This document shows, piece after piece, positions 1-59,100 of a stretch of DNA of 64,000 bases. Source of the stretch: the human T2T-CHM13v2.0 reference genome, Homo sapiens; the NCBI GenBank assembly GCA_009914755.4, contig CP086569.2:28736001-28800000 (forward strand), written 5' to 3'. Made by a program: the position numbers and the translations under genes. How positions within the stretch are numbered: position 1 is the first letter of the stretch; each line of letters starts with the position of its first letter. The notes beneath the pieces are model-generated. The model was not told the DNA's origin and did not search any database. It saw nothing but the letters and a program-made list of their open reading frames with translations.

Positions 1-150
1 TATTATTCCATTCCATTCAATTCCATTCCAGATGATTCCATTCCATTCTATACCATTGCTCTCTGTTCCCTTCCATTCCATCTGTCTCCATTCCTTTCGT
101 TTCGATTCCTTTCCATTCCATTCCATTACATTTGATCCTATTTTATTAAA
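1..150 (+). repeat. 3' end of a ~3.56 kb HOR unit, truncated by the window edge
   Basis: Position 1 onward (tattattccattccattcaattccattccagatgattcc...) matches position 48957 onward exactly, i.e. the tail of unit 14 that precedes the unit-15 start at 49107. Confidence 0.8.
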
Positions 151-3100
151 TTGCATTCTATTCGAGTGATTTCCATTCGAGTCCTTTCCATTCGATTCCA
201 TTCCATTCTATTCCATTCCTTTGGATTCCATTCCATTCCCTTCCGTTCACATCAATTCCTTGCGATTCCATTACATTCGATTTCTTGCCATTCGATTCCA
301 TTCCTTTTGACTCCATTTCATTCGATTCCATTCCATTCCATTAATTTCCATTCCATTCGAGACCATTCCATTGCAGTCTTTTCCCTTCGAGTCCATTCCG
401 TTCGATTCCCTTCCATTCGATTCCATTCCATTGGAGTCCGTACCAGTCGAGTCCATTCTATTCCAGTCCATTAGTTTCGACTCCATTACATTCGAGTGCA
501 TTCCATTCCGTGGCTGTCCATTCCATTCCGTTTGATGCCATTCCATACGATTCCATTCAATTCGAGACCATTCTATTCCTGTCCATTCCTTGTGCTTCGA
601 TTCCATTTCACTCTAGTCCATTCCATTCCATTCAATTCCATTCGACTCTATTCCGTTCCATTCAATTCCATTCCATTCGATTCCATTTTTTTCGAGAACC
701 TTCCATTACACTCCCTTCCATTCCAGTGCATTCCATTCCAGTCTCTTCAGTTCGATTCCATTCCATTCGTTTCGATTCCTTTCCATTCCAGCCCATTCCA
801 TTCCATTCCATTCCTTTCCTTTCCGTTTCATTAGATTCCATTGCATTCCATTCCATTCAATTCAATTCCGTGCTATTCAATTTGATTCATATCCATTTAA
901 TTCCATTCCATTAGATTCCATTCCGTACGATTCCATTCCTTTGGAATCCATTCCATTGGAGTCCATTCACTTCCAGAACATTCCATTCCAGTCGAATCCA
1001 TTCGAGTACATTCCATTAAAGTTCATTACATTCTAATACATTCCATTCCATTGCATTCCATTCCATTCCATTCGATGCCATTCGATTCCATTCCATGCCA
1101 AATCATTGCATTCCTTTCCATTCCGTTCCTATCAATTCCATTCCATTCGATTTAGTTCGATTCTATTCACTTCCATTCCATTCGATTCCATTCCATTGGA
1201 GTCAATTCCTTTCGACACCCAGCCTTTCCAGTCAATGATTTTGGAGTCCATTTTTTTGCATTCCATTACATTCTATGACATTCGATTCCGTTTCATTGCA
1301 TTCCATTCCATACATTTTTATTCCATTCGAGACCGTAGCATTCCACTTTATTCCAGACCTGTCCATTACACTACATTCCCTTCCATTCCAATGAATTCCA
1401 TTCCATTCCAATCCATTCCTTTCCTTTCGCTTGCATTCCATTCTATTCCCTTCTACTGCATACAATTTCACTCCATTCGTTCCCATTCCATTCAATTCCA
1501 TTCCATTCAATTCCATTCCATTTGTTTCCATTCTCTTCGATTCCATTTCTTTATATTCCATGCCATTCGATTCCATTCTATTGGATTGCATGACTTTCGT
1601 GTTCATTCCATTCCAGACCATTCCATTTGACTCCATTCCTTTCGAGCCCTTTCAATTTGAGTCCATTCCTTTCCAGTCCATTTCACTCCAGTCCATTACT
1701 ATCCATTCCATACCATTCCATCCCATTCCATTAAATTCCATTCCATTCCATTCCATTCCATTCCATTGCATTCCATTCCATTCCATTCCATTGCACTGCA
1801 CTCCATTCCATTACATTCTACTCTATTTGAGTCGATTTTATTGCATTAGATTCTATTCCATTGGATTACTTTCCATTCGATTACATTCCATTAATGTACA
1901 TTCCATTCCAGTCAATTACATTCGAGTTCATTAGATTACATTCCAGTATATTCCATTCTATTTGATCCCATTCCTTTCAATTCCATTTCATTCGACTCCA
2001 TTATATTCGATTCCATTCCACTCGAATCCATTCCATTAGAGGACATTCCATTCCAATGCATTCCATTCCATTCCATAGCATTCCATTGCATTCGATTCCA
2101 TTCCATTTGATGCCATTCCATTTGATGCCATTCCATGACATTCCATTCCATTCGAGTCCATTCCGTTCCAATTCATTCCATTCCGTTTCATGAAATTCGA
2201 GTCCTTTCCAGTACATTTCATTCCAATCCCATCCAATCCAATCTACTCCATTCAATTCCTTTCCATTCCATTTGATTAGATTCCATTGATTTGATTCCAT
2301 TCAGTTTGATTCCATTCCGTGAAATTTCGTTCCATTCTATTCCATTGCATTACTTTCCATTCAATTCCATTCCATTTCATTTCAGTCCATTCGATTCCTT
2401 TCCTTTCGATTCAATTCCATTTGATTCCACTCCATTCTATGCGATTTCATTCCAATCGATTCAATTCCATTCGATGACATTCCTTTCGTTTCCATTCCAT
2501 TCGAGTCCATTCAATTTGAGTATTCGTGTCCATTCAATTCGAGTCCATTCCATTACCGTCTATTCTATTCCCTTCCATTCCTGTTGATTCAATTTCATTC
2601 CCTTCCATTCGATTCCTTTCCATTCAATTCCATTCCTTTCCATTCCATTCCATTCCTTCCCATTCCATGTGATTTCATTCCATTCCAGTCCATTATATTC
2701 GAGTCCACTCCACTCCATTCTATTACATTCAATTCCTTTTGAGTCCGTTCCATAACACTCCATTCATTTCGATTCCATTTCTTGCCAGTTTTCTTCCATT
2801 TTATTCCATTCCGTTCGATTCCCTTCCATTCGATTGCATTCCATTCGAATCCTTTCCATTCCATTTCATTCCATTCCTTTCTATTCCATTCCATTTCATT
2901 CGATTTGATTCCATTCTGTTCTATTCCATTCAATTCTTTTTCATTCCATTCGAATCCTTTCTATTGCAGTCCATTCCATTCGAGTCCATTCCAATCCCTT
3001 CCATTCCATTCCATTACAGTCCATTCCAATAGATTCCATTCCTTTGCCTTCCATTCGAATCCATTCCATTCTAGTCCATTCCATTTGAGTCAATTCCATT

Positions 3101-3713
3101 CCATTCCATTCTATTCCTTTCCAATCCATTCGATTCCATTCGATTCAATTCCATTTGATTCTCTTTCATTCTATTTTATTCCATGCCATTTGATTGCATT
3201 GCATTCCATTCCGTTTGATTCCAGTCCATTCAAGAAAGTTCCATTCCAGTCCATTGCTTTCCAGTCCATTCCATTCCACTCTAGTCTATTCCACTCCATT
3301 CCTTTCCATTCCATTCCATACTATTCTATTCCATTCCTTTGCATTCCGTTTGCAATCTATTCGAGTCCATTGCATCCAGTCCAATCCATTCGATTACATT
3401 CCTTTTGATTCCCTGCCAGTCGATTGCATTGCATACTAGACCATTCCAAACGAGTCCATTCCATTCTATCTCAAAACTTTCCATTCCACTCTGTTCGAGT
3501 CCATTCCATTCCAGTCCATTTAATTCAAGGGCATTCCATTCCATTCCATTCCATTCCATTTCATATTATTCCATTCCATTCAATTCCATTCCAGATGATT
3601 CCATTCCATTCTATACCATTGCTCTCTGTTCCATTCCATTCCATCTGTCTCCATTCCTTTCGTTTCGATTCCTTTCCATTCCATTCCATTACATTTGATC
3701 CTATTTTATTAAA
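151..3713 (+). repeat. HOR unit 1, 3563 bp, subtype 1 (AGACC at the HaeIII position, so no GGCC)
   Basis: Phased on the anchor ttgcattctattcgagtgatttccattcgagtcc at 151. The next anchor is at 3714. ORF-track peptides 151..474 and 1106..1630 recur in later units. Confidence 0.85.
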
Positions 3714-6700
3714 TTGCATTCTATTCGAGTGATTTCCATTCGAGTCCTTTCCATTCGATTCCATTCCATTCTATTCCATTCCTTTGGATTCCATTCCATT
3801 CCGTTCCGTTCACATCAATTCCTTGCGATTCCATTACATTCGATTTCTTGCCATTCGATTCCATTCCTTTTGACTCCATTTCATTCGATTCCATTCCATT
3901 CCATTAATTTCCATTCCATTCGAGACCTTTCCATTGCAGTCTTTTCCCTTCGAGTCCATTCCGTTCGATTCCCTTCCATTCGATTCCATTCCATTGGAGT
4001 CCGTACCAGTCGAGTCCATTCTATTCCAGTCCATTAGTTTCGACTCCATTGCATTCGAGTGCATTCCATTCCGTGGCTGTCCATTCCATTCCGTTTGATG
4101 CCATTCCATACGATTCCATTCAATTCGAGACCATTCTATTCCTGTCCATTCCTTGTGGTTCGATTCCATTTCACTCTAGTCCATTCCATTCCATTCAATT
4201 CCATTCGACTCTATTCCGTTCCATTCAATTCCATTCCATTCGATTCCATTTTTGTCGAGAACCTTCCATTACACTCCCTTCCATTCCAGTGCATTCCATT
4301 CCAGTCTCTTCAGTTCGATTCCATTCCATTCGTTTCGATTCCTTTCCATTCCAGCCCATTCCATTCCATTCCTTTCCTTTCCGTTTCATTAGATTCCATT
4401 GCATTCGATTCCATTCAATTCAATTCCATGCTATTCAATTTGATTCATTTCCATTTAATTCCATTCCATTAGATTCCATTCCGTACGATTCCATTCCTTT
4501 TGAATCCATTCCATTGGAGTCCATTCACTTCCAGAACATTCCATTCCAGTCGAATCCATTCGAGTACATTCCATTAAAGTTCATTAGATTCTAATACGTT
4601 CCATTCCATTGCATTCCATTCCATTCCATTCGATGCCATTCGATTCCATTCCGTGCCAAATCATTGCATTCCTTTCCATTCCGTTCCTATCAATTCCATT
4701 CCATTCGATTTAGTTCGATTCTATTCACTTCCACTCCATTCGATTCCATTCCATTGGAGTCAATTCCTTTCGACACCCAGCCTTTCCAGTCAATGATTTT
4801 GGATTCCATTTTTTTGCATTCCATTACATTCTATGACATTCGATTCCGTTTCATTGCATTCCATTCCATACATTTTTATTCCATTCGAGACCGTAGCATT
4901 CCACTTTATTCCAGGCCTGTCCATTACACTACATTCCCTTCCATTCCAATGAATTCCATTCCATTCCAATCCATTCCTTTCCTTTCGCTTGCATTCCATT
5001 CTATTCCCTTCTACTGCATACAATTTCACTCCATTCGTTCCCATTCCATTCAATTCCATTCCATTCAATTCCATTCCATTTGTTTCCATTCTCTTCGATT
5101 CCATTTCTTTATATTCCATGCCATTCGATTCCATTCTATTGGAATGCGTTACATTCGTGTTCATTCCATTCCAGACCATTCCATTTGACTCCATTCCTTT
5201 CGAGCCCTTTCAATTTGAGTCCATTCCTTTCCAGTCCATTTCACTCCAGTCCATTACTATCCATTGCATACCATTCCATCCCATTCCATTCCATTCCATT
5301 CCATTCCATTCCATTCCATTCCATTGCACTGCACTCCATTCCATTACATTCTACTCTATCTGAGTCGGTTTTATTGCATTAGATTCTATTCCATTGGATT
5401 ACTTTCCATTCGATTACATTCCATTCATGTACATTCCATTCCAGTCAATTACATTCGAGTTCATTACATTACATTCCAGTATATTCCATTCTATTCGATC
5501 CCATTCCTTTCAATTCCATTTCATTCGACTCCATTATATTCGATTCCATTCCACTCAAATCCATTCCATTAGAGGACATTCCATTCCAATGCATTCCATT
5601 CCATTCCATAACATTCCATTGCATTCGATTCCATTCCATTTGATGCCATTCCATGACATTCCATTCCATTCGAGTCCATTCCGTTCCAATTCATTCCATT
5701 CCATTTCATGAAATTCGAGTCCTTTCCAGTACATTTCATTCCAATCCCATCCAATCCAATCTACTCCATTCAATTCCTTTCCATTCCATTTGATTAGATT
5801 CCATTGATTTGATTCCATTCAGTTTGATTCCATTCCGTGAAATTTCGTTCCATTCTATTCCATTGCATTACTTTCCATTCAATTCCATTCCATTTCATTT
5901 CAGTCCATTCGCTTCCTTTCCTTTCGATTCAATTCCATTTGATTCCACTCCATTCTATGCGATTTCATTCCAATCGATTCAATTCCATTCGATGACATTC
6001 CTTTCGTTTCCATTCCATTCGAGTCCATTCAATTTGAGCATTCGTGTCCATTCTATTCGAGTCCATTCCATTTCCGTCTATTCTATTCCCTTCCATTCCT
6101 GTTGATTCAATTTCGTTCCCTTCCATTCGATTCCTTTCCATTCGATTCCATTCCTTTCCATTCCATTCCATTCGTTCCCATTCCATGTGATTTCATTCCA
6201 TTCCAGTCCATTATATTCGAGTCCACTCCACTCCATTCTATTACATTCAATTCCTTTTGAGTCCGTTCCATAACACTCCATTCATTTCGATTCCATTTCT
6301 TGCCAGTTTTCTTCCATTTTATTCCATTCCGTTCGATTCCATTCCATTCGATTGCATTCCATTCGAATCCTTTCCATTCCATTTCATTCCATTCCTTTCT
6401 ATTCCATTCCATTTCATTCGATTTGATTCCATTCTGTTCTATTCCATTCAATTCTTTTTCATTCCATTCGAATCCTTTCTATTGCAGTCCATTCCATTCG
6501 AGTCCATTCCAATCCCTTCCATTCCATTCCATTACAGTCCATTCCAATAGATTCCATTCCTTTGCCTTCCATTCGAATCCATTCCATTCTAGTCCATTCC
6601 ATTTGAGTCAATTCCATTCCATTCCATTCTATTCCTTTCCAATCCATTAGATTCCATTCGATTCAATTCCATTTGATTCTCTTTCATTCTATTTTATTCC

Positions 6701-7232
6701 ATGCCATTTGATTGCATTGCATTCCATTCCGTTTGATTCCAGTCCATTCAAGAAAGTTCCATTCCATTCCATTGCTTTCCAGTCCATTCCATTCCATTCT
6801 AGTCTATTCCACTCCATTCCTTTCCATTCCATTCCATACTATTCCATTCCATTCTTTTGCATTCCGTTTCCAATCTATTCGAGTCCATTGCATTCCAGTC
6901 CAGTCCATTCCATTACATTCCTTTTGATTCCCTGCCAGTCGATTGCATTGCATACTACACCATTCCAAACGAGTCCATTCCATTCTATCTCAACACTTTC
7001 CATTCCACTCTGTTCGAGTCCATTCCATTCCAGTCCATTTAATTCAAGGGCATTCCATTCCATTCCATTCCATTCCATTTCATATTATTCCATTCCATTC
7101 AATTCCATTCCAGATGATTCCATTCCATTCTATACCATTGCTCTCTGTTCCCTTCCATTCCATCTGTCTCCATTCCTTTCGTTTCGATTCCTTTCCATTC
7201 CATTCCATTACATTTGATCCTATTTTATTAAA
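3714..7232 (+). repeat. HOR unit 2, 3519 bp, subtype 2 (GGCC at 4914-4917)
   Basis: Anchor at 3714, next anchor at 7233. The 181-aa artefact ORF 4049..4594 is identical to 45868..46413 and 53005..53550. Confidence 0.85.
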
Positions 7233-9905
7233 TTGCATTCTATTCGAGTGATTTCCATTCGAGTCCTTTCCATTCGATTCCGTTCCATTCTATTCCATTC
7301 CTTTGGATTCCATTCCATTCCGTTCCGTTCACATCAATTCCTTGCGATTCCATTCCATTCGATTTCTTGCCATTCGATTCCATTCCTTTTGACTCCATTT
7401 CATTCGATTCCATTCCATTCCATTAATTTCCATTCCATTCGAGACCATTCCATTGCAGTCTTTTCCCTTCGAGTCCATTCCGTTCGATTCCCTTCCATTC
7501 GATTCCATTCCATTGGAGTCCGTACCAGTCGAGTCCATTCTATTCCAGTCCATTAGTTTCGACTCCATTACATTCGAGTGCATTCCATTCCGTGGCTGTC
7601 CATTCCATTCCGTTTGATGCCATTCCATACGATTCCATTCAATTCGAGACCATTCTATTCCTGTCCATTCCTTGTGCTTCGATTCCAATTCACTCTAGTC
7701 CATTCCATTCCATTCAATTCCATTCGACTCTATTCCGTTCCATTCAATTCCATTCCATTCGATTCCATTTTTTTCGAGAACCTTCCATTACACTCCCTTC
7801 CATTCCAGTGCATTCCATTCCAGTCTCTTCAGTTCGATTCCATTCCATTCGTTTCGATTCCTTTCCATTCCAGCCCATTCCATTCCATTCCATTCCTTTC
7901 CTTTCCGTTTCATTAGATTCCATTGCATTCCATTCCATTCAATTCAATTCCGTGCTATTCAATTTGATTCATATCCATTTAATTCCATTCCATTAGATTC
8001 CATTCCGTACGATTCCATTCCTTTGGAATCCATTCCAATGGAGTCCATTCACTTCCAGAACATTCCATTCCAGTCGAATCCATTCGAGTACATTCCATTA
8101 AAGTTCATTACATTCTAATACATTCCATTCCATTGCATTCCATTCCATTCCATTCGATGCCATTCGATTCCATTCCATGCCAAATCATTGCATTCCTTTC
8201 CATTCCGTTCCTATCAATTCCATTCCATTCGATTTAGTTCGATTCTATTCACTTCCATTCCATTCGATTCCATTCCATTGGAGTCAATTCCTTTCGACAC
8301 CCAGCCTTTCCAGTCAATGATTTTGGATTCCATTTTTTTGCATTCCATTACATTCTATGACATTCGATTCCGTTTCATTGCATTCCATTCCATACATTTT
8401 TATTCCATTCGAGACCGTAGCATTCCACTTTATTCCAGACCTGTCCATTACACTACATTCCCTTCCATTCCAATGAATTCCATTCCATTCCAATCCATTC
8501 CTTTCCTTTCGCTTGCATTCCATTCTATTCCCTTCTACTGCATACAATTTCACTCCATTCGTTCCCATTCCATTCAATTCCATTCCATTCAATTCCATTC
8601 CATTTGTTTCCATTCTCTTCGATTCCATTTCTTTATATTCCATGCCATTCGATTCCATTCTATTGAATTGCATTACTTTCGTGTTCATTCCATTCCAGAC
8701 CATTCCATTTGACTCCATTCTTTCGAGCCCTTTCAATTTGAGTCCATTCCTTTCCAGTCCATTTCACTCCAGTCCATTACTATCCATTCCATACCATTCC
8801 ATCCCATTCCATTAAATTCCATTCCATTCCATTCCATTCCATTGCATTCCATTCCATTCCATTCCATTGCACTGCACTCCATTCCATTACATTCTACTCT
8901 ATTTGAGTCGATTTTATTGCATTAGATTCTATTCCATTGGATTACTTTCCACTCGATTACATTCCATTCATGTACATTCCATTCCAGTCAATTACATTCG
9001 ACTTTGTTACATTGCACTCCAGTATATTCCATTCTATTCGATCCCATTCCTTTCCATTCCATTTCATTCCATTCCTTCTTATTCCATTCCGTTTCATTCG
9101 ATTTGATTCCATTCTGTTCTATTCCATTCAATTCTTTTTCATTCCATTCGAATCTTTCTATTGCAGTACATTCAATTCGAGTCCATTCCAATCCCTTCCA
9201 TTCCATTCCATTACAGTCCATTCCAATAGATTCTATTCTTTTGCCTTCCATTCGAATCCATTCCATTCTAGTCCATTCCATTTGAGTCAATTCCATTCCA
9301 TTCCATTCTATTCCTTTCCAATCCATTCGATTCCATTCGATTCAATTCCATTTGATTCTCTTTCATTCTATTTTATTCCATGCCATTTGATTGCATTGCA
9401 TTCCATTCCGTTTGATTCCAGTCCATTCAAGAAAGTTCCATTCCAGTCCATTGCTTTCGTGTCCATTCCATTCCACTCTAGTCTATTCCACTGCATTCCT
9501 TTCCATTCCATTCCATACTATTCCATTCCATTCCTTTGCATTCCGTTTGCAATCTATTCGAGTCCATTGCATTCCAGTCCAATCCATTCGATTACATTCC
9601 TTTTGATTCCCTGCCAGTCGATGCATTGCATATTAGACCATTCCAAAGGAGTCCATTCCATTCTATTTCAACACTTTCCATTCCAGTCTGTTCGAGTCCA
9701 TTCCATTCCAGTCCATTTAATTCAAGGGCATTCCATTCCATTCCATTCCATATCATATTATTCCATTCCATTCAATTCCATTCCAGATGATTCCATTCCA
9801 TTCTATACCATTGCTCTCTGTTCCATTCCATTCCATCTGTCTCCATTCCTTTCGTTTCGATTCCTTTCCATTCCATTCCATTACATTTCATCCTATTTTA
9901 TTAAA
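7233..9905 (+). repeat. HOR unit 3, only 2673 bp; chimeric unit with a recombination junction at ~9050-9075
   Basis: Anchor at 7233, next anchor at 9906. Up to ~9050 the sequence is identical to unit 17 (offset 48,956). After a stretch of cctttc[a/c]attccatttcattc microhomology, it continues with sequence that in unit 17 lies ~890 bp further on, and it now matches the unit 4/5 subfamily. Confidence 0.75.
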
Positions 9906-12900
9906 TTGCATTCTATTCGAGTGATTTCCATTCGAGTCCTTTCCATTCGATTCAATTCCATTCTATACCATTCCTTTGGATTCCATTCCATTCCGTTCCG
10001 TTCACATCCATTCCTTGCGATTCCATTACATTCGATTTCTTGCCATTCGATTCCATTCCTTTTGACTCCATTTCATTCGATTCCATTCCATTCCATTAAT
10101 TTCCATTCCATTCGAAACCTTTCCATTGCAGTCTTTTCACTTCGAGTCCATTCCGTTCGATTCCATTTCATTCGATTCCATTCCTTTGGAGTGCGTACCA
10201 GTCGAGTCCATTCTATTCCACTCCATTAGTTTCGACTCCATTGCATTCGAGTGCATTCAATTCCTTGGCTGTCCATTCCATTCCGTTTGATGCCATTCCA
10301 TAGGATTCCATTCAATTCGAGACCATTCTATTCCTGTCCATTCCTTGTGATTCGATTCCATTTCACTCTAGTCCATTCTATTCCATTCAATTCCATTCGA
10401 CTCTATTCCGTTCCATTCAATTAAATTCCATTCGATTCCATTTGTTTCGAGAACCTTCCATTACACTCCCTTCCATTCCAGTGCATTCCATTCCAGTCTC
10501 TTCAGTTCGATTCCATTCCATTCGTTTCGATTCCTTTCCATTCCAGCCCATTCCATTCCATTCCATTCCTTTCCTTTCCGTTTCATTAGATTCCATTGCG
10601 TTCGATTCCATTCAATTCAATTCCGTGCTATTCAGTTTGATTCCTTTCCATTTAATTCCATTCCATTAGATAACATTCCGTTCGATTCCATTCCTTTCGA
10701 ATCCATTCCATTGGAGTCCATTCACTTCCAGAACATTCCATTCCAGTCGAATCCATTCGAGTACATTCCATTAAAGTTCATTACATTCTAATACATTCCA
10801 TTCCATTGCATTCCATTCCATTCCATTCGATGCCATTCGATTCCATTCCATGCCAAATCATTCCATTCCTTTCCATTCCGTTCCGGTCAATTGCATTCCA
10901 TTCAATTTAGTTCGATTCTATTCACTTCCATTCCATTCGATTCCATTCCATTGGAGTCAATTCCTTTCGACACACAGTCTTTCCAGTCAATGACTTTGGA
11001 GTCCATTTTTTTGCATTCCATTACATTCTATGACATTCGATTCCGTTTCATTGCATTCCATTCCATACATTTTTATTCCATTCGAGACCGTAGCATTCCA
11101 GTTTATTCCAGGCCTGTCCATTACACTACATTCCCTTCCATTCCAATGAATTCCATTCCATTCTAATCCATTCCTTTCCTTTCGCTTGCATTCCATTCTA
11201 TTCTCTTCTATTCCATACAATTTCACTCCATTCGTTCCCATTCCATTCAATTCCATTCCATTCAATTCCATTCCATTTCTTTCCATTCTCTTCGATTCCA
11301 TTTCTTTATATTCCATGCCATTCGATTCCATTCCATTGGATTGCATTACATTCGAGTTCATTCCATTCCAGACCATTCCATTTGACTCCATTCCTTTCGA
11401 GCCCTTTCAATTTGAGTCCATTGCTTTCCAGTCCATTTCACTCCAGTCCATTCCTATCCATTCCATACCATTCCATCCCATTCCATTCCATTCCATTCCA
11501 CTCCATTGCATTCCATTCCATTCCATTCCATTGCACTGCATTCCATTCCATTACATTCTATTCCATTTGAGTCGATTTTATTGCATTAGATTCTATTCCA
11601 TTGGATTACTTTCCATTCGATTACATTCCATTCATGTACATTCCATTCCAGTCAATTACATTCGACTTCATTACATTACATGCTAGTATATTCCATTCTA
11701 TTCGATCCCATTCCTTTCAATTCCATTTCATTCGACTCCATTATATTCAATTCCATTCCACTCGAATCCATTCCATTAGAGGACATTTCATTCCAATACA
11801 TTCCATTCCATTCCATAACATTCCATTGCATTCGATTCCATTCCATTTGATGCCATTCCATGACTTTCCATTCCATTCGAGTCCATTGCATTCCAATTCA
11901 TTCCATTCCGTTTCATAAAGTTCGAATCCTTTCCATTCCATTGCATTCCAATCCGTTCCAATCCAATCTATTCCATTCAATTCCTTTCCATTCCATTTGA
12001 TTATATTCCATTGATTTGATTCCATTCAGTTTGATTCCATTCCGTGAAATTTCGTTCCATTCTATTCCATTGCATTACTTTCCATTCAATTCCATTCCAT
12101 TTCATTTCAGTCCATTCGCTTCCTTTCCTTTCGATTCAATTCTATTTGATTCCACTCCATTCTATGACATTTCATTCCAATCGATACAATTCCATTCGAT
12201 GATATTCCTTTCGTTTCCATTCTATTCGAGTCCATTCAATTTGAGCATTCGTGTCCATTCTATTCGAGTCCATTCCATTACAGTCTATTCTATTCCCTTC
12301 CATTCCTGTTGATTCAATTTCATTCCCTTCCATTTGATTCCTTTGCATTCGATTCCATTCCGTTCCATTCCATTCCATTCGTTCCCATTCCATGTGATTC
12401 CATTCCATTCCAGTCCATTATATTCGAGTCCACTCCACTCCATTCTATTACATTCCATTCCTTTTGAGTCCGTTCCATAACACTCCATTCATTTCGATTC
12501 CATTTATTGCCAGTTTGCTTCCATCTTATTCCATTCCGTTCGTTTCCATTCCATTCGATTGCATTCCATTCGATTGCATTCCATTCGAATCCTTTCCATT
12601 CCATTTCATTCCATTCCTTTCTATTCCATTCCATTTCATTCGATTTGATTCCATTCTGTTCTATTCCATTCAATTATTTTTCATTCCATTCGAATCCTTT
12701 CTATTGCAGTCCATTCCATTCGAGTCCATTCCAATCCCTTCCATTCCATTCCATTACAGTCCATTCCAATAGATTCTATTCCTTTGCCTTCCATTCGACT
12801 CCCTTCTATTCTAGTCCATTCCATTTGTGTCAATTCCATTCCATTCCATTCTATTCCTTTCCAATCCATTCGATTCCATTCGACTCAATTCCATTCGATT

Positions 12901-48500: not shown

Positions 48501-49106
48501 ATCCATTAGATTCCATTCGATTCAATTCCATTTGATTCTCTTTCATTCTATTTTATTCCATGCCATTTGATTGCATTGCATTCCATTCCGTTTGATTCCA
48601 GTCCATTCAAGAAAGTTCCATTCCAGTCCATTGCTTTCCAGTCCATTCCATTCCATTCTAGTCTATTCCACTCCATTCCTTTCCATTCCATTCCATACTA
48701 TTCCATTCCATTCTTTTGCATTCCGTTTCCAATCTATTCGAGTCCATTGCATTCCAGTCCAGTCCATTCCATTACATTCCTTTTGATTCCCTGCCAGTCG
48801 ATTGCATTGCATACTACACCATTCCAAAGGAGTCCATTCCATTCTATCTCAACACTTTCCATTCCACTCTGTTCGAGTCCATTCCATTCCAGTCCATTTA
48901 ATTCAAGGGCATTCCATTCCATTCCATTCCATTCCATTCCATTCCATTCCATTTCATATTATTCCATTCCATTCAATTCCATTCCAGATGATTCCATTCC
49001 ATTCTATACCATTGCTCTCTGTTCCCTTCCATTCCATCTGTCTCCATTCCTTTCGTTTCGATTCCTTTCCATTCCATTCCATTACATTTGATCCTATTTT
49101 ATTAAA
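45533..49106 (+). repeat. HOR unit 14, 3574 bp, subtype 2 (GGCC at 46733-46736)
   Basis: Anchor at 45533. It is near-identical to unit 16 at an offset of 7137, and in part to unit 12 at an offset of 7138. Confidence 0.85.
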
Positions 49107-52100
49107 TTGCATTCTATTCGAGTGATTTCCATTCGAGTCCTTTCCATTCGATTCCATTCCATTCTATTCCATTCCTTTGGATTCCATTCCATTCCCTTCC
49201 GTTCACATCAATTCCTTGCGATTCCATTACATTCGATTTCTTGCCATTCGATTCCATTCCTTTTGACTCCATTTCATTCGATTCCATTCCATTCCATTAA
49301 TTTCCATTCCATTCGAGACCATTCCATTGCAGTCTTTTCCCTTCGAGTCCATTCCGTTCGATTCCCTTCCATTCGATTCCATTCCATTGGAGTCCGTACC
49401 AGTCGAGTCCATTCTATTCCAGTCCATTAGTTTCGACTCCATTACATTCGAGTGCATTCCATTCCGTGGCTGTCCATTCCATTCCGTTTGATGCCATTCC
49501 ATACGATTCCATTCAATTCGAGACCATTCTATTCCTGTCCATTCCTTGTGCTTCGATTCCATTTCACTCTAGTCCATTCCATTCCATTCAATTCCATTCG
49601 ACTCTATTCCGTTCCATTCAATTCCATTCCATTCGATTCCATTTTTTTCGAGAACCTTCCATTACACTCCCTTCCATTCCAGTGCATTCCATTCCAGTCT
49701 CTTCAGTTCGATTCCATTCCATTCGTTTCGATTCCTTTCCATTCCAGCCCATTCCATTCCATTCCATTCCTTTCCTTTCCGTTTCATTAGATTCCATTGC
49801 ATTCCATTCCATTCAATTCAATTCCGTGCTATTCAATTTGATTCATATCCATTTAATTCCATTCCATTAGATTCCATTCCGTACGATTCCATTCCTTTGG
49901 AATCCATTCCATTGGAGTCCATTCACTTCCAGAACATTCCATTCCAGTCGAATCCATTCGAGTACATTCCATTAAAGTTCATTACATTCTAATACATTCC
50001 ATTCCATTGCATTCCATTCCATTCCATTCGATGCCATTCGATTCCATTCCATGCCAAATCATTGCATTCCTTTCCATTCCGTTCCTATCAATTCCATTCC
50101 ATTCGATTTAGTTCGATTCTATTCACTTCCATTCCATTCGATTCCATTCCATTGGAGTCAATTCCTTTCGACACCCAGCCTTTCCAGTCAATGATTTTGG
50201 AGTCCATTTTTTTGCATTCCATTACATTCTATGACATTCGATTCCGTTTCATTGCATTCCATTCCATACATTTTTATTCCATTCGAGACCGTAGCATTCC
50301 ACTTTATTCCAGACCTGTCCATTACACTACATTCCCTTCCATTCCAATGAATTCCATTCCATTCCAATCCATTCCTTTCCTTTCGCTTGCATTCCATTCT
50401 ATTCCCTTCTACTGCATACAATTTCACTCCATTCGTTCCCATTCCATTCAATTCCATTCCATTCAATTCCATTCCATTTGTTTCCATTCTCTTCGATTCC
50501 ATTTCTTTATATTCCATGCCATTCGATTCCATTCTATTGGATTGCATGACTTTCGTGTTCATTCCATTCCAGACCATTCCATTTGACTCCATTCCTTTCG
50601 AGCCCTTTCAATTTGAGTCCATTCCTTTCCAGTCCATTTCACTCCAGTCCATTACTATCCATTCCATACCATTCCATCCCATTCCATTAAATTCCATTCC
50701 ATTCCATTCCATTCCATTCCATTGCATTCCATTCCATTCCATTCCATTGCACTGCACTCCATTCCATTACATTCTACTCTATTTGAGTCGATTTTATTGC
50801 ATTAGATTCTATTCCATTGGATTACTTTCCATTCGATTACATTCCATTAATGTACATTCCATTCCAGTCAATTACATTCGAGTTCATTAGATTACATTCC
50901 AGTATATTCCATTCTATTTGATCCCATTCCTTTCAATTCCATTTCATTCGACTCCATTATATTCGATTCCATTCCACTCGAATCCATTCCATTAGAGGAC
51001 ATTCCATTCCAATGCATTCCATTCCATTCCATAGCATTCCATTGCATTCGATTCCATTCCATTTGATGCCATTCCATTTGATGCCATTCCATGACATTCC
51101 ATTCCATTCGAGTCCATTCCGTTCCAATTCATTCCATTCCGTTTCATGAAATTCGAGTCCTTTCCAGTACATTTCATTCCAATCCCATCCAATCCAATCT
51201 ACTCCATTCAATTCCTTTCCATTCCATTTGATTAGATTCCATTGATTTGATTCCATTCAGTTTGATTCCATTCCGTGAAATTTCGTTCCATTCTATTCCA
51301 TTGCATTACTTTCCATTCAATTCCATTCCATTTCATTTCAGTCCATTCGATTCCTTTCCTTTCGATTCAATTCCATTTGATTCCACTCCATTCTATGCGA
51401 TTTCATTCCAATCGATTCAATTCCATTCGATGACATTCCTTTCGTTTCCATTCCATTCGAGTCCATTCAATTTGAGTATTCGTGTCCATTCAATTCGAGT
51501 CCATTCCATTACCGTCTATTCTATTCCCTTCCATTCCTGTTGATTCAATTTCATTCCCTTCCATTCGATTCCTTTCCATTCAATTCCATTCCTTTCCATT
51601 CCATTCCATTCCTTCCCATTCCATGTGATTTCATTCCATTCCAGTCCATTATATTCGAGTCCACTCCACTCCATTCTATTACATTCAATTCCTTTTGAGT
51701 CCGTTCCATAACACTCCATTCATTTCGATTCCATTTCTTGCCAGTTTTCTTCCATTTTATTCCATTCCGTTCGATTCCCTTCCATTCGATTGCATTCCAT
51801 TCGAATCCTTTCCATTCCATTTCATTCCATTCCTTTCTATTCCATTCCATTTCATTCGATTTGATTCCATTCTGTTCTATTCCATTCAATTCTTTTTCAT
51901 TCCATTCGAATCCTTTCTATTGCAGTCCATTCCATTCGAGTCCATTCCAATCCCTTCCATTCCATTCCATTACAGTCCATTCCAATAGATTCCATTCCTT
52001 TGCCTTCCATTCGAATCCATTCCATTCTAGTCCATTCCATTTGAGTCAATTCCATTCCATTCCATTCTATTCCTTTCCAATCCATTCGATTCCATTCGAT

Positions 52101-52669
52101 TCAATTCCATTTGATTCTCTTTCATTCTATTTTATTCCATGCCATTTGATTGCATTGCATTCCATTCCGTTTGATTCCAGTCCATTCAAGAAAGTTCCAT
52201 TCCAGTCCATTGCTTTCCAGTCCATTCCATTCCACTCTAGTCTATTCCACTCCATTCCTTTCCATTCCATTCCATACTATTCTATTCCATTCCTTTGCAT
52301 TCCGTTTGCAATCTATTCGAGTCCATTGCATCCAGTCCAATCCATTCGATTACATTCCTTTTGATTCCCTGCCAGTCGATTGCATTGCATACTAGACCAT
52401 TCCAAACGAGTCCATTCCATTCTATCTCAAAACTTTCCATTCCACTCTGTTCGAGTCCATTCCATTCCAGTCCATTTAATTCAAGGGCATTCCATTCCAT
52501 TCCATTCCATTCCATTTCATATTATTCCATTCCATTCAATTCCATTCCAGATGATTCCATTCCATTCTATACCATTGCTCTCTGTTCCATTCCATTCCAT
52601 CTGTCTCCATTCCTTTCGTTTCGATTCCTTTCCATTCCATTCCATTACATTTGATCCTATTTTATTAAA
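49107..52669 (+). repeat. HOR unit 15, 3563 bp, subtype 1; copy of unit 1 at an offset of 48,956
   Basis: Anchor at 49107. Every ORF-track artefact in unit 1 recurs with identical length and translation at +48,956. Confidence 0.85.
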
Positions 52670-55600
52670 TTGCATTCTATTCGAGTGATTTCCATTCGAG
52701 TCCTTTCCATTCGATTCCATTCCATTCTATTCCATTCCTTTGGATTCCATTCCATTCCGTTCCGTTCACATCAATTCCTTGCGATTCCATTACATTCGAT
52801 TTCTTGCCATTCGATTCCATTCCTTTTGACTCCATTTCATTCGATTCCATTCCATTCCATTAATTTCCATTCCATTCGAGACCTTTCCATTGCAGTCTTT
52901 TCCCTTCGAGTCCATTCCGTTCGATTCCCTTCCATTCGATTCCATTCCATTGGAGTCCGTACCAGTCGAGTCCATTCTATTCCAGTCCATTAGTTTCGAC
53001 TCCATTGCATTCGAGTGCATTCCATTCCGTGGCTGTCCATTCCATTCCGTTTGATGCCATTCCATACGATTCCATTCAATTCGAGACCATTCTATTCCTG
53101 TCCATTCCTTGTGGTTCGATTCCATTTCACTCTAGTCCATTCCATTCCATTCAATTCCATTCGACTCTATTCCGTTCCATTCAATTCCATTCCATTCGAT
53201 TCCATTTTTGTCGAGAACCTTCCATTACACTCCCTTCCATTCCAGTGCATTCCATTCCAGTCTCTTCAGTTCGATTCCATTCCATTCGTTTCGATTCCTT
53301 TCCATTCCAGCCCATTCCATTCCATTCCTTTCCTTTCCGTTTCATTAGATTCCATTGCATTCGATTCCATTCAATTCAATTCCATGCTATTCAATTTGAT
53401 TCATTTCCATTTAATTCCATTCCATTAGATTCCATTCCGTACGATTCCATTCCTTTTGAATCCATTCCATTGGAGTCCATTCACTTCCAGAACATTCCAT
53501 TCCAGTCGAATCCATTCGAGTACATTCCATTAAAGTTCATTAGATTCTAATACGTTCCATTCCATTGCATTCCATTCCATTCCATTCGATGCCATTCGAT
53601 TCCATTCCGTGCCAAATCATTGCATTCCTTTCCATTCCGTTCCTATCAATTCCATTCCATTCGATTTAGTTCGATTCTATTCACTTCCACTCCATTCGAT
53701 TCCATTCCATTGGAGTCAATTCCTTTCGACACCCAGCCTTTCCAGTCAATGATTTTGGATTCCATTTTTTTGCATTCCATTACATTCTATGACATTCGAT
53801 TCCGTTTCATTGCATTCCATTCCATACATTTTTATTCCATTCGAGACCGTAGCATTCCACTTTATTCCAGGCCTGTCCATTACACTACATTCCCTTCCAT
53901 TCCAATGAATTCCATTCCATTCCAATCCATTCCTTTCCTTTCGCTTGCATTCCATTCTATTCCCTTCTACTGCATACAATTTCACTCCATTCGTTCCCAT
54001 TCCATTCAATTCCATTCCATTCAATTCCATTCCATTTGTTTCCATTCTCTTCGATTCCATTTCTTTATATTCCATGCCATTCGATTCCATTCTATTGGAA
54101 TGCGTTACATTCGTGTTCATTCCATTCCAGACCATTCCATTTGACTCCATTCCTTTCGAGCCCTTTCAATTTGAGTCCATTCCTTTCCAGTCCATTTCAC
54201 TCCAGTCCATTACTATCCATTGCATACCATTCCATCCCATTCCATTCCATTCCATTCCATTCCATTCCATTCCATTCCATTGCACTGCACTCCATTCCAT
54301 TACATTCTACTCTATCTGAGTCGGTTTTATTGCATTAGATTCTATTCCATTGGATTACTTTCCATTCGATTACATTCCATTCATGTACATTCCATTCCAG
54401 TCAATTACATTCGAGTTCATTACATTACATTCCAGTATATTCCATTCTATTCGATCCCATTCCTTTCAATTCCATTTCATTCGACTCCATTATATTCGAT
54501 TCCATTCCACTCAAATCCATTCCATTAGAGGACATTCCATTCCAATGCATTCCATTCCATTCCATAACATTCCATTGCATTCGATTCCATTCCATTTGAT
54601 GCCATTCCATGACATTCCATTCCATTCGAGTCCATTCCGTTCCAATTCATTCCATTCCATTTCATGAAATTCGAGTCCTTTCCAGTACATTTCATTCCAA
54701 TCCCATCCAATCCAATCTACTCCATTCAATTCCTTTCCATTCCATTTGATTAGATTCCATTGATTTGATTCCATTCAGTTTGATTCCATTCCGTGAAATT
54801 TCGTTCCATTCTATTCCATTGCATTACTTTCCATTCAATTCCATTCCATTTCATTTCAGTCCATTCGCTTCCTTTCCTTTCGATTCAATTCCATTTGATT
54901 CCACTCCATTCTATGCGATTTCATTCCAATCGATTCAATTCCATTCGATGACATTCCTTTCGTTTCCATTCCATTCGAGTCCATTCAATTTGAGCATTCG
55001 TGTCCATTCTATTCGAGTCCATTCCATTTCCGTCTATTCTATTCCCTTCCATTCCTGTTGATTCAATTTCGTTCCCTTCCATTCGATTCCTTTCCATTCG
55101 ATTCCATTCCTTTCCATTCCATTCCATTCGTTCCCATTCCATGTGATTTCATTCCATTCCAGTCCATTATATTCGAGTCCACTCCACTCCATTCTATTAC
55201 ATTCAATTCCTTTTGAGTCCGTTCCATAACACTCCATTCATTTCGATTCCATTTCTTGCCAGTTTTCTTCCATTTTATTCCATTCCGTTCGATTCCATTC
55301 CATTCGATTGCATTCCATTCGAATCCTTTCCATTCCATTTCATTCCATTCCTTTCTATTCCATTCCATTTCATTCGATTTGATTCCATTCTGTTCTATTC
55401 CATTCAATTCTTTTTCATTCCATTCGAATCCTTTCTATTGCAGTCCATTCCATTCGAGTCCATTCCAATCCCTTCCATTCCATTCCATTACAGTCCATTC
55501 CAATAGATTCCATTCCTTTGCCTTCCATTCGAATCCATTCCATTCTAGTCCATTCCATTTGAGTCAATTCCATTCCATTCCATTCTATTCCTTTCCAATC

Positions 55601-56188
55601 CATTAGATTCCATTCGATTCAATTCCATTTGATTCTCTTTCATTCTATTTTATTCCATGCCATTTGATTGCATTGCATTCCATTCCGTTTGATTCCAGTC
55701 CATTCAAGAAAGTTCCATTCCATTCCATTGCTTTCCAGTCCATTCCATTCCATTCTAGTCTATTCCACTCCATTCCTTTCCATTCCATTCCATACTATTC
55801 CATTCCATTCTTTTGCATTCCGTTTCCAATCTATTCGAGTCCATTGCATTCCAGTCCAGTCCATTCCATTACATTCCTTTTGATTCCCTGCCAGTCGATT
55901 GCATTGCATACTACACCATTCCAAACGAGTCCATTCCATTCTATCTCAACACTTTCCATTCCACTCTGTTCGAGTCCATTCCATTCCAGTCCATTTAATT
56001 CAAGGGCATTCCATTCCATTCCATTCCATTCCATTTCATATTATTCCATTCCATTCAATTCCATTCCAGATGATTCCATTCCATTCTATACCATTGCTCT
56101 CTGTTCCCTTCCATTCCATCTGTCTCCATTCCTTTCGTTTCGATTCCTTTCCATTCCATTCCATTACATTTGATCCTATTTTATTAAA
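52670..56188 (+). repeat. HOR unit 16, 3519 bp, subtype 2 (GGCC at 53870-53873); copy of unit 2
   Basis: Anchor at 52670. It has the same length (3519 bp) as unit 2, and 53005..53550 = 4049..4594. Confidence 0.85.
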
Positions 56189-59100
56189 TTGCATTCTATT
56201 CGAGTGATTTCCATTCGAGTCCTTTCCATTCGATTCCGTTCCATTCTATTCCATTCCTTTGGATTCCATTCCATTCCGTTCCGTTCACATCAATTCCTTG
56301 CGATTCCATTCCATTCGATTTCTTGCCATTCGATTCCATTCCTTTTGACTCCATTTCATTCGATTCCATTCCATTCCATTAATTTCCATTCCATTCGAGA
56401 CCATTCCATTGCAGTCTTTTCCCTTCGAGTCCATTCCGTTCGATTCCCTTCCATTCGATTCCATTCCATTGGAGTCCGTACCAGTCGAGTCCATTCTATT
56501 CCAGTCCATTAGTTTCGACTCCATTACATTCGAGTGCATTCCATTCCGTGGCTGTCCATTCCATTCCGTTTGATGCCATTCCATACGATTCCATTCAATT
56601 CGAGACCATTCTATTCCTGTCCATTCCTTGTGCTTCGATTCCAATTCACTCTAGTCCATTCCATTCCATTCAATTCCATTCGACTCTATTCCGTTCCATT
56701 CAATTCCATTCCATTCGATTCCATTTTTTTCGAGAACCTTCCATTACACTCCCTTCCATTCCAGTGCATTCCATTCCAGTCTCTTCAGTTCGATTCCATT
56801 CCATTCGTTTCGATTCCTTTCCATTCCAGCCCATTCCATTCCATTCCATTCCTTTCCTTTCCGTTTCATTAGATTCCATTGCATTCCATTCCATTCAATT
56901 CAATTCCGTGCTATTCAATTTGATTCATATCCATTTAATTCCATTCCATTAGATTCCATTCCGTACGATTCCATTCCTTTGGAATCCATTCCAATGGAGT
57001 CCATTCACTTCCAGAACATTCCATTCCAGTCGAATCCATTCGAGTACATTCCATTAAAGTTCATTACATTCTAATACATTCCATTCCATTGCATTCCATT
57101 CCATTCCATTCGATGCCATTCGATTCCATTCCATGCCAAATCATTGCATTCCTTTCCATTCCGTTCCTATCAATTCCATTCCATTCGATTTAGTTCGATT
57201 CTATTCACTTCCATTCCATTCGATTCCATTCCATTGGAGTCAATTCCTTTCGACACCCAGCCTTTCCAGTCAATGATTTTGGATTCCATTTTTTTGCATT
57301 CCATTACATTCTATGACATTCGATTCCGTTTCATTGCATTCCATTCCATACATTTTTATTCCATTCGAGACCGTAGCATTCCACTTTATTCCAGACCTGT
57401 CCATTACACTACATTCCCTTCCATTCCAATGAATTCCATTCCATTCCAATCCATTCCTTTCCTTTCGCTTGCATTCCATTCTATTCCCTTCTACTGCATA
57501 CAATTTCACTCCATTCGTTCCCATTCCATTCAATTCCATTCCATTCAATTCCATTCCATTTGTTTCCATTCTCTTCGATTCCATTTCTTTATATTCCATG
57601 CCATTCGATTCCATTCTATTGAATTGCATTACTTTCGTGTTCATTCCATTCCAGACCATTCCATTTGACTCCATTCTTTCGAGCCCTTTCAATTTGAGTC
57701 CATTCCTTTCCAGTCCATTTCACTCCAGTCCATTACTATCCATTCCATACCATTCCATCCCATTCCATTAAATTCCATTCCATTCCATTCCATTCCATTG
57801 CATTCCATTCCATTCCATTCCATTGCACTGCACTCCATTCCATTACATTCTACTCTATTTGAGTCGATTTTATTGCATTAGATTCTATTCCATTGGATTA
57901 CTTTCCATTCGATTACATTCCATTCATGTACATTCCATTCCAGTCAATTACATTCGAGTTCATTACATTACATTCCAGTATATTCCATTCTATTCGATCC
58001 CATTCCTTTCAATTCCATTTCATTCGACTCCATTATATTCGATTCCATTCCACTCGAATCCATTCCATTAGAGGACATTCCATTCCAATGCATTCCATTC
58101 CATTCCATAGCATTCCATTGCATTCGATTCCATTCCATTTGATGCCATTCCATTTGATGCCATTCCATGACATTCCATTCCATTCGAGTCCATTCCGTTC
58201 CAATTCATTCCATTCCGTTTCATGAAATTCGAGTCCTTTCCAGTACATTTCATTCCAATCCCATCCAATCCAATCTACTCCATTCAATTCCTTTCCATTC
58301 CATTTGATTAGATTCCATTGATTTGATTCCATTCAGTTTGATTCCATTCCGTGAAATTTCGTTCCATTCTATTCCATTGCATTACTTTCCATTCAATTCC
58401 ATTCCATTTCATTTCAGTCCATTCGCTTCCTTTCCTTTCGATTCAATTCCATTTGATTCCACTCCATTCTATGCGATTTCATTCCAATCGATTCAATTCC
58501 ATTCGATGACATTCCTTTCGTTTCCATTCCATTCGAGTCCATTCAATTTGAGCATTCGTGTCCATTCTATTCGAGTCCATTCCATTTCCGTCTATTCTAT
58601 TCCCTTCCATTCCTGTTGATTCAATTTCGTTCCCTTCCATTCGATTCCTTTCCATTCGATTCCATTCCTTTCCATTCCATTCCATTCGTTCCCATTCCAT
58701 GTGATTTCATTCCATTCCAGTCCATTATATTCGAGTCCACTCCACTCCATTCTATTACATTCAATTCCTTTTGAGTCCGTTCCATAACACTCCATTCATT
58801 TCGATTCCATTTCTTGCCAGTTTTCTTCCATTTTATTCCATTCCGTTCGATTCCATTCCATTCGATTGCATTCCATTCGAATCCTTTCCATTCCATTTCA
58901 TTCCATTCCTTTCTATTCCATTCCATTTCATTCGATTTGATTCCATTCTGTTCTATTCCATTCAATTCTTTTTCATTCCATTCGAATCCTTTCTATTGCA
59001 GTCCATTCCATTCGAGTCCATTCCAATCCCTTCCATTCCATTCCATTACAGTCCATTCCAATAGATTCCATTCCTTTGCCTTCCATTCAAATCCATTCCA

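What the first reader, a model, noticed from the sequence alone, without database searches (positions are those of the whole stretch)
1..58006. Long-range near-identical duplicate blocks exactly 48,956 bp apart
Seen in sequence: positions 1-~9050 and 48957-~58006 are essentially identical, yet many units between them differ. Every ORF-track artefact in the first block recurs at +48,956 with identical length and translation, for example 1106..1630 = 50062..50586 and 2782..3408 = 51738..52364, including the truncated 208-aa variant. The block spans unit 1 (3563 bp), unit 2 (3519 bp) and the first part of unit 3. Identity ends precisely at the recombination junction at ~9050.

Inference: this points to a very recent multi-unit (~49 kb, ~14-unit) segmental duplication or unequal sister-chromatid exchange within the array, or alternatively to an assembly collapse or expansion artefact.
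Basis: seen in the sequence. Interest (0 to 1): 0.6.

Follow-up and report, generated by a model that had tools for sequence, protein, structure and literature searches.

The report
Recent 14-unit duplication in Y satellite
Two stretches of at least 8,951 bases, 48,956 bases apart in a human Y-chromosome-type DYZ1 satellite array, are letter-for-letter identical; this is the expected footprint of a recent multi-unit duplication by unequal exchange, a process already documented for this satellite, so it is real but ordinary.

Summary
Window 1-8951 equals 48957-57907 with zero mismatches. The next longest perfect run anywhere in the window is 2,836 bp, and the next best long alignment is 99.43% identical.

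The window is pure (ATTCC)n satellite with a ~3.56 kb higher-order unit, 38.7% GC and 1 CpG per 35 bp. These are the published properties of human Y DYZ1/HSat3A6.

The offset is 14 units in register, less one 855-bp deletion. One detail needs correcting:
- Perfect identity ends at 8951, not ~9050.
- 8952-9047 stays in register but carries 6 substitutions.
- The out-of-register junction lies at 9048-9054.

The block touches the window's left edge, so its true length is unknown.

The simplest reading is one in-register unequal sister-chromatid exchange. It would have made a 48,956-bp tandem duplication (second copy 8952-57907) with its novel joint at 8951/8952. On the published Yq12 mutation rate it is no older than about 430 generations.

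Long-tract repair copying and an assembly or consensus artefact cannot be excluded from the window alone. Such duplications are already described for Yq12, so interest is low.

The parts
1..8951 (+). Copy 1 of the perfect block. It holds the 3' 2,499 bp of one unit, one full 3,518-bp unit and the first 2,934 bp of a third. It is cut on the left by the window edge.
   Evidence: 0 mismatches to 48957-57907; unit map.
48957..57907 (+). Copy 2 of the perfect block (units u14 3' part, u15, u16 up to phase 2934).
8952..9047 (+). A 96-bp stretch still in register with copy 2 but carrying 6 substitutions. Five are private to this copy (8952, 9005, 9006, 9014, 9017). One (9002) is shared only with the two diverged units downstream. 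The joint 8951/8952 is the right-hand limit of the exchange.
   Evidence: Ungapped alignment; alignment of all phase-equivalent segments; private-substitution list.
9048..9054 (+). Out-of-register junction J2. Unit phase ~3037 is joined to phase ~366 through the 7-bp microhomology TCCTTTC (about 22 bp if imperfect matches count). 855 bp of a unit pair is missing.
   Evidence: BLAST to a reference unit: 6018-9069 = phase 1-3058 and 9048-12222 = phase 351-3562. Alignment to 12590-12873. The junction 49-mer is unique in the window.
9055..15768 (+). Two diverged units (u3p, u4). They are 96.1-96.9% identical to the other full-length units and 98.1% to each other.
8952..57907 (+). Candidate duplicated segment D, 48,956 bp, equal to 14 units minus the 855-bp deletion. 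Under the tandem model this is the complete second copy, and 1-8951 is the tail of the first.
   Evidence: Inference. Not testable inside the window.
57908..58531 (+). Canonical continuation of the last unit of copy 2. It shows what the unit looks like where no junction intervenes.
   Evidence: 54974-58529 aligns to reference phase 1-3562 at 98.7%. Tile 58001 is 99.8% to 50925-51424.
37806..54284 (+). Zone of older two-unit (~7.14 kb) near-identical repeats that overlaps copy 2. It serves as the yardstick for ordinary recent duplication in this array.
   Evidence: 37806-47147 vs 44953-54284 is 99.43% identical. Perfect run of 2,836 bp at offset 7,138.

Best explanation
The window lies inside a DYZ1 (HSat3A6) array of the human Y long-arm heterochromatin type: tandem ~3.56 kb units built from ATTCC pentamers.

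The two perfect blocks are the visible part of a recent multi-unit duplication made by recombination between misaligned copies of the array. The simplest single event is an unequal sister-chromatid exchange in register with the 3.56 kb unit but displaced by 14 units. The crossover took place just left of 8952, between a u16-type unit and an older, diverged unit.

The product is a 48,956-bp direct tandem duplication. Its second copy is 8952-57907 and its first copy ends at 8951. The window happens to begin inside that first copy.

Shown:
- perfect identity over 8,951 bp;
- direct orientation;
- an in-register joint;
- a 14-unit displacement;
- outlier status against every other unit pair.

Inferred:
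- that the identity continues leftwards for the full 48,956 bp;
- that the exchange was between sister chromatids;
- the age.
For: Identity of the satellite:
- Pentamer array with 15-nt and 100-nt sub-periods and a ~3.56 kb super-period.
- GC 38.7% and 1 CpG per 35.3 bp, with HaeIII sites 3,554-3,573 bp apart. Hallast et al. report 38% GC, 1 CpG/35 bp and 3,569-bp HaeIII fragments for DYZ1.
- 45 independent public contigs, including human gut metagenome assemblies, are mostly 96-99.6% identical to window units.

Duplication:
- 0 differences in 8,951 bp, against 99.43% for the next best long pair.
- The same diagonal is kept for a further 118 bp at 94% identity, so the joint is in register.
- (48,956 + 855)/14 = 3,557.9 bp per unit.
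- Uniform strand skew across the window, so there is no inversion.

Mechanism is known for this region:
[quoted passage not shown] It also reports sister-chromatid exchanges in Yq12 in ~15% of Strand-seq libraries.
- Pedigree data show about one de novo unit-scale structural change in Yq12 per transmission.

Age (inference): with the published Yq12 rate of 3.86e-7 per bp per generation, zero differences in 2 x 8,951 bp gives a 95% upper bound of ~434 generations.

Logical point (inference): the sequence runs block -> 8952..48956 -> block -> 57908... A linear haploid chromosome therefore needs two copies of the block if both exits from it are real.
Against: - Only 8,951 of the proposed 48,956 bp can be compared. 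The left 40 kb of the first copy lies outside the window.
- The partner unit at the joint looks about 5-6% diverged over the 96 bp that remain. That is a poor substrate for homologous exchange unless its lost left part was more similar.
- A second junction (855-bp deletion) and a cluster of private substitutions sit within 140 bp of the joint (8 observed against 1.27 expected). A single clean crossover does not predict either.
- Perfect identity is also what a false duplication or an over-smoothed consensus would give.
- Neither junction sequence was found in independent public data.
Confidence: 0.5

Rival explanations
1. Non-tandem patch. A long tract of at least 8,951 bp was copied from the u14-u16 region into a homologous position 14 units away, by break-induced replication or long-tract gene conversion. 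It overwrote older diverged units up to 8951. Identity would then stop somewhere left of the window, well short of 48,956 bp.
For: - The right end of the tract is in register, as a homology-guided copy would be.
- The patch abuts diverged units (9055-15768, ~96.5%). That is the picture expected when a homogenising copy runs into old sequence.
- Interlocus gene conversion is documented in Yq12: 29% of de novo SNVs have identical non-orthologous donors, and 17% of events are called conversion.
Against: - The conversion events reported in those pedigrees are SNV-scale; a tract of at least 9 kb would be far longer (own knowledge for typical tract lengths).
- It needs two homology-guided ends, where one crossover suffices for the tandem model.
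- Nothing in the window requires it.
Confidence: 0.17
2. Assembly or consensus artefact. Either a loop in the assembly graph was traversed once too often, or two truly similar but not identical loci were given one shared consensus. Either way the perfect identity, or the second copy itself, would not be in the genome.
For: - Exactly zero differences over 8,951 bp, in an array whose other recent duplicates differ by ~0.6%.
- Yq12 is hard to assemble: only 84 Yq12 assemblies are described as QC-passing in a set of 142 Y assemblies.
- Substitutions private to this copy cluster at the end of the block, as might occur at a mis-join.
Against: - The window runs continuously from the block into 8952..48956 and back into the block, then out to 57908... 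Two occurrences of the block are therefore needed unless a junction is chimeric (inference).
- There are no Ns.
- All differences at the joint are substitutions, not the indels typical of long-read consensus error (the error profile is own knowledge).
- Real duplications of this kind are well documented in Yq12.
Confidence: 0.18
3. One complex replicative event (template switching of the MMBIR/BIR type) produced three things together: the long copy, the 855-bp out-of-register jump through 7 bp of microhomology, and the nearby substitutions through error-prone synthesis.
For: - Two junctions lie 97 bp apart, and the second uses only 7 bp of perfect microhomology.
- 8 private substitutions fall in 140 bp around the junctions, against 1.27 expected. 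This is the second-densest cluster in the window.
- The 24-mer carrying four of the private substitutions, plus the 9002 variant, is unique in the window. It is absent from 47 independent copies of that segment.
Against: - 'Private' is judged against only 16 other distinct units in the window and 47 outside fragments, out of thousands of DYZ1 units per Y.
- Other diverged units also show substitution clusters (5-6 per 140 bp).
- Position 9002 shares its variant with the neighbouring diverged units. That points to an old diverged unit rather than fresh errors.
- Microhomology of this length is trivial in a pentamer satellite.
Confidence: 0.1

Closest known systems
Iterative tandem duplications in human Yq12 (DYZ1/DYZ2) described in the T2T-Y assembly (Rhie et al., bioRxiv 10.1101/2022.12.01.518724)
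   Same: Same satellite type. Direct, multi-unit, high-identity duplications attributed to unequal exchange, with sister-chromatid exchange observed in the region.
   Different: Those highlighted are up to 5 Mb and span whole DYZ1 and DYZ2 blocks. This one is ~49 kb (14 units) inside a single DYZ1 array, and only 9 kb of it is visible here.
Within-array homogenisation of DYZ1/DYZ2, with diverged units left at array edges (Hallast et al., bioRxiv 10.1101/2022.12.01.518658)
   Same: Here too, highly similar units (98-99.6%) sit beside diverged ones (96.5%) and length variants. The paper gives a unit size range of 1,165-3,608 bp, with 95% above 3 kb. The 2,383-bp and 2,755-bp units here belong to the rare short class.
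   Different: The paper reports the pattern statistically, not individual breakpoints. Whether this window lies near an array edge is unknown.
The ~80 kb duplication in the DYZ19 array shared by haplogroup QR Y chromosomes, dated to ~36,000 years (Hallast et al.)
   Same: A single, datable, tens-of-kb tandem duplication inside a Y satellite array.
   Different: Different satellite family. That event was dated on a phylogeny, whereas here only an upper bound from zero differences is available.
De novo unit-scale structural changes and interlocus gene conversion in Yq12 in a four-generation pedigree (Porubsky et al., PMC12240836)
   Same: The same region and the same class of process, observed directly. 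It supplies the mutation rate used for the age bound.
   Different: The observed de novo events were 2.4-4.8 kb (one or two DYZ2 units), not 14 DYZ1 units.

Membership tests
Human Y DYZ1 / HSat3A6 satellite | Built from the pentamer ATTCC/CATTC on one strand | tested here: met
   4,304 ATTCC against 8 GGAAT on the + strand. TRF gives a 15-nt period array over 5-63908. GC skew is about -0.57 throughout.
Human Y DYZ1 / HSat3A6 satellite | Nested higher-order unit of ~3.5-3.6 kb, with a HaeIII ladder near 3.56 kb | tested here: met
   Twelve full-length units of 3,542-3,577 bp, plus 3,516-bp variants. GGCC spacing is 3,554-3,573 bp where consecutive units keep the site. The literature value is 3,569 bp.
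Human Y DYZ1 / HSat3A6 satellite | Composition of 38% GC and about 1 CpG per 35 bp | tested here: met
   38.7% GC and 1 CpG per 35.3 bp, against the published values.
Human Y DYZ1 / HSat3A6 satellite | Sequence identity to the published DYZ1 consensus, and location on Yq12 | not testable with these tools
   No human genome or DYZ1 consensus is held. Indirect support only: 45 public contigs are mostly 96-99.6% identical. They include ones labelled human gut metagenome and short contaminant contigs in bacterial assemblies, which is the contamination pattern the T2T-Y paper describes.
Tandem duplication by in-register unequal exchange | Copies in direct orientation, displaced by a whole number of repeat units | tested here: met
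   Same strand; 14 units once the 855-bp deletion is allowed for.
Tandem duplication by in-register unequal exchange | A single novel joint, with homologous, in-register sequence on both sides | tested here: met
   The diagonal is unchanged across 8951/8952, with 111 of 118 matches over the next 118 bp.
Tandem duplication by in-register unequal exchange | Identity extends over the whole period (duplicated length equals spacing, 48,956 bp) | not testable with these tools
   The first copy would begin ~40 kb left of the window. Exact-protein look-ups aimed at finding a flanking contig returned nothing.
False duplication (assembly artefact) | Single-copy read depth and no reads spanning each copy into unique flanks | not testable with these tools
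   No reads are available. Only the indirect path argument, and the absence of Ns or indel-type errors.

The most novel reading that the evidence does not exclude
The end of the perfect block may be a complex breakpoint made in one replicative repair event. Its features are an in-register switch, then 96 bp carrying 5 private substitutions, then a 7-bp-microhomology jump that deletes 855 bp, then 3 more private substitutions. If so, at least some multi-unit expansions in Y heterochromatin arise by error-prone template switching (BIR/MMBIR-like) rather than by classical unequal crossing-over, and they leave a mutational scar that could be searched for array-wide.
Probability: 0.1. Interest if true: 0.4.

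Novelty: already known. Interest (0 to 1): 0.12.

Why it matters
On its own it matters little. It is one more instance of the unequal-exchange turnover already shown for Yq12 satellites.

Its practical uses are modest:
- The joint at 8951/8952 and the junction at 9048-9054 are unique sequence markers in an otherwise featureless array. They could be used to check the assembly with long reads and to date the event on the Y phylogeny.
- The substitution cluster at the breakpoint is a small, testable hint about the repair mechanism behind array expansion.

Tried and rejected
1. A loose 21-mer anchor to delimit units matched everywhere, and a fuzzy regex timed out. I replaced them with BLAST to a reference unit.
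2. Concatemer or circular-contig artefact: rejected. Identity at offset 48,956 would then continue across the whole 15,044-bp overlap, but it stops at 8951.
3. An older 49-kb super-period: rejected. The sequences following the two blocks are not each other's closest relatives (9055-15044 against 58011-64000). Only one ~600-bp segment around 62,000 resembles 9,500, 13,000 and 16,500, at ~98%.
4. The short units at the right end as the DYZ18/DYZ1 hybrid '2.7 kbp' repeat of Hallast et al.: rejected. All parts of 58532-63669 align to ordinary DYZ1 phases at 96-98%.
5. Coding or RNA function of the recurring ORFs: rejected. There were no Rfam hits. Pfam gave only sub-threshold pentapeptide and extensin matches, as expected from translating a 15-nt period.
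6. Independent confirmation of the junctions: the variant 24-mer was absent from metagenome contigs and the J2 42-mer was absent from genome contigs. Exact-product look-ups for two window ORFs were empty. These results are uninformative rather than negative, because the collections hold only a few dozen DYZ1 fragments.
Full report
**What the window is**

The 64 kb is one uninterrupted, single-orientation satellite.
- Base counts are T 25,893, C 19,442, A 13,301 and G 5,364.
- GC skew is about -0.57 in every 2-kb bin.
- There are 4,304 ATTCC against 8 GGAAT.
- Tandem Repeats Finder reports one array over 5-63908 with 15-nt and 100-nt periods.

BLAST of one unit (26474-30035) against the window gives a ~3.56 kb higher-order unit repeated head to tail. 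GC is 38.7%, CpG density is 1 per 35.3 bp, and HaeIII sites are 3,554-3,573 bp apart where neighbouring units keep them.

These are the published properties of human Y-chromosome DYZ1 (HSat3A6): ~3.5-3.6 kb nested repeats of a CATTC pentamer, 38% GC, 1 CpG per 35 bp and predominant HaeIII fragments of 3,569 bp.

A degenerate 24-mer from the unit retrieved 38 metagenome contigs and 7 contigs in 'bacterial' assemblies. Most are 96-99.6% identical to window units, and some are labelled human gut metagenome. This matches the human Y satellite contamination described in the T2T-Y paper. I could not compare the window with a human genome or a DYZ1 consensus, so the chromosomal assignment rests on these properties.

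**The observation**

At offset 48,956 there is no mismatch between 1-8951 and 48957-57907. The first is at 8952. Over all diagonals the longest perfect run is this one, at 8,951 bp. The next is 2,836 bp at offset 7,138.

Ordinary unit pairs are 97.4-99.6% identical. The next best long alignment is 37806-47147 against 44953-54284, at 99.43% with 41 mismatches and 12 gap positions. At that divergence the chance of an unbroken 8,951 bp is about 7e-23.

These ORFs are translation artefacts of a 15-nt period: there were no Rfam hits and only sub-threshold pentapeptide-repeat and extensin matches in Pfam.

The run begins at base 1, so it is truncated by the window and 8,951 bp is a minimum.

**Anatomy of the end of identity**

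There are in fact two separate features.
- **An in-register joint.** Perfect identity stops at 8951/8952 while the two sequences stay on the same diagonal. The next 118 bp match at 111 positions. Against every phase-equivalent segment in the window, five of the substitutions are private to this copy (8952, 9005, 9006, 9014, 9017). One (9002) is shared only with the two diverged units that follow.
- **An out-of-register junction.** At 9048-9054 the unit jumps from phase ~3037 to phase ~366 through the microhomology TCCTTTC, losing 855 bp. The apparent seventh mismatch at 9055 belongs to the phase-366 template.

Downstream lie two diverged units (9055-15768). They are ~96.5% identical to the rest and 98.1% to each other. 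Copy 2, by contrast, simply continues as a canonical unit (57908-58531).

**Geometry**

(48,956 + 855)/14 = 3,557.9 bp. The two blocks are therefore displaced by exactly 14 units in register, once the 855-bp deletion is allowed for. Both are on the same strand.

**Most likely mechanism**

One in-register unequal exchange between misaligned sister chromatids would fit the data. The crossover would lie just left of 8952, between a u16-type unit and an older diverged unit. It would create a 48,956-bp direct tandem duplication with these features:
- the second copy is 8952-57907;
- the first copy ends at 8951;
- the novel joint is 8951/8952;
- the original continuation is retained after 57907.

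That is exactly the layout seen. It predicts that the 40 kb left of the window equals 8952-48956.

The mechanism is the accepted one for this region. [quoted passage not shown] Hallast et al. describe homogenised array interiors with diverged units toward the edges. Pedigree work finds about one unit-scale de novo structural change per Y transmission.

**Age (inference)**

I used the Yq12 rate of 3.86e-7 per bp per generation. Zero differences across 2 x 8,951 bp then gives a 95% upper bound of ~434 generations. A rate ten-fold lower, as for Y euchromatin, would raise the bound ten-fold. Ongoing conversion between the copies would make this the age of the last homogenisation rather than of the duplication.

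The event is at least ~17 times younger, in divergence terms, than the neighbouring 7.1-kb duplications (under 0.034% against 0.57%).

**Rivals**

- **Non-tandem patch.** A long copied tract (break-induced replication or long-tract conversion) overwrote older units up to 8951. It gives the same right-hand joint and differs only in what lies left of the window.
- **Assembly or consensus artefact.** Exact identity is what a false duplication would show, and Yq12 assemblies often fail quality control. Against this, the window reads block -> 8952..48956 -> block -> 57908.... A linear haploid chromosome needs the block twice unless one junction is chimeric. There are no Ns, and the differences at the joint are all substitutions. 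What could still be wrong is the number of copies of the 49-kb period, or the exactness of the identity.
- **A single complex replicative event.** This is suggested by two junctions 97 bp apart and by 8 private substitutions in 140 bp against 1.27 expected, the second-densest cluster in the window. The evidence is thin. 'Private' is judged against 16 distinct units here and 47 fragments elsewhere. Other diverged units show smaller clusters too. The shared variant at 9002 points to an old diverged unit.

**External checks that gave nothing**

- The variant 24-mer (8999-9022) was absent from the metagenome collection.
- The J2 42-mer was absent from the genome collection.
- Exact-product look-ups for the junction-spanning 430-aa ORF and the 208-aa ORF found no contig.

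The collections hold only a few dozen DYZ1 fragments, so these results do not bear on whether the junctions are real.

**Comparison with what is known, and verdict**

The satellite meets every DYZ1 criterion I could test. The duplication meets the testable criteria of an in-register unequal-exchange product: direct orientation, a whole-unit displacement and a single homologous joint. The decisive criterion, identity across the full period, lies outside the window.

Multi-unit, near-perfect duplications are a described and expected feature of Yq12 and of satellite arrays in general. The finding is real and correctly read in outline, needs a ~100-bp correction at its boundary, and is not novel. 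Interest is low. The only mildly unusual element is the compound, substitution-rich breakpoint.

Noticed in passing
window 9048-9054 (context 9043-9091): Out-of-register junction inside a unit. Phase ~3037 is joined to phase ~366 through the 7-bp microhomology TCCTTTC, deleting 855 bp. The 49-mer across it is unique in the window, even allowing 3 mismatches.
   Followed up: yes
window 8952-9091: Eight substitutions private to this copy fall within 140 bp around the two junctions, against 1.27 expected from the neighbouring diverged units. The cause is unresolved: an old diverged remnant, mutagenic repair, or consensus error.
   Followed up: partly
window 9055-15768: Two adjacent units are clearly more diverged than the others (~96.5% to other units, 98.1% to each other). 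They are embedded between much more homogeneous units.
   Followed up: partly
window 37806-54284: A local two-unit (~7.14 kb) super-repeat at 99.43% identity, including a 2,836-bp perfect run (39597-42432 = 46735-49570). It is an older round of duplication that overlaps copy 2 of the perfect block.
   Followed up: partly
window 58532-63669: Two short variant units. 58532-60914 (2,383 bp) is phase 1-2004 joined to phase 3139-3558, an internal deletion of ~1.16 kb. 60915-63669 (2,755 bp) has the same deletion plus a 380-bp internal tandem duplication (61385-62197, 96% between copies). A third unit starts at 63670. They are wholly DYZ1-like, not the DYZ18/DYZ1 hybrid '2.7 kbp' repeat.
   Followed up: yes
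window 61151-61290: The densest cluster of private substitutions in the window (11 in 140 bp, eight of them at alternate positions 61264-61283). It looks like a local pentamer-phase shift or an alignment artefact, but this was not examined.
   Followed up: no
window, GGCC sites 4914, 11111, 18199, 21753, 25321, 28894, 32458, 36012, 46733, 53870: The HaeIII site that defines the classical 3.56 kb ladder is present in every unit only between 18 and 36 kb. Elsewhere it is kept in every second or third unit, giving 6.2-10.7 kb fragments.
   Followed up: no
loci L039-L045 (e.g. L039 1-3637, L045 1-3604): Contigs deposited as bacterial genome sequence are 98-99.6% identical to window units over their full length. 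Examples are Actinomadura cremea JCM 3308, several Streptomyces and a Polyangiaceae MAG. This is human satellite contamination of public microbial assemblies.
   Followed up: partly
loci L006 and L015 (contigs BNJT01001888.1, 55,496 bp; BNJU01004413.1, 54,597 bp): Two ~55 kb metagenome contigs carry this satellite (97-98% to window units over the 6-12 kb held). They may be long-read assemblies of human Y heterochromatin. They could show how common long perfect repeats are in other individuals, but only part of each was retrievable.
   Followed up: no
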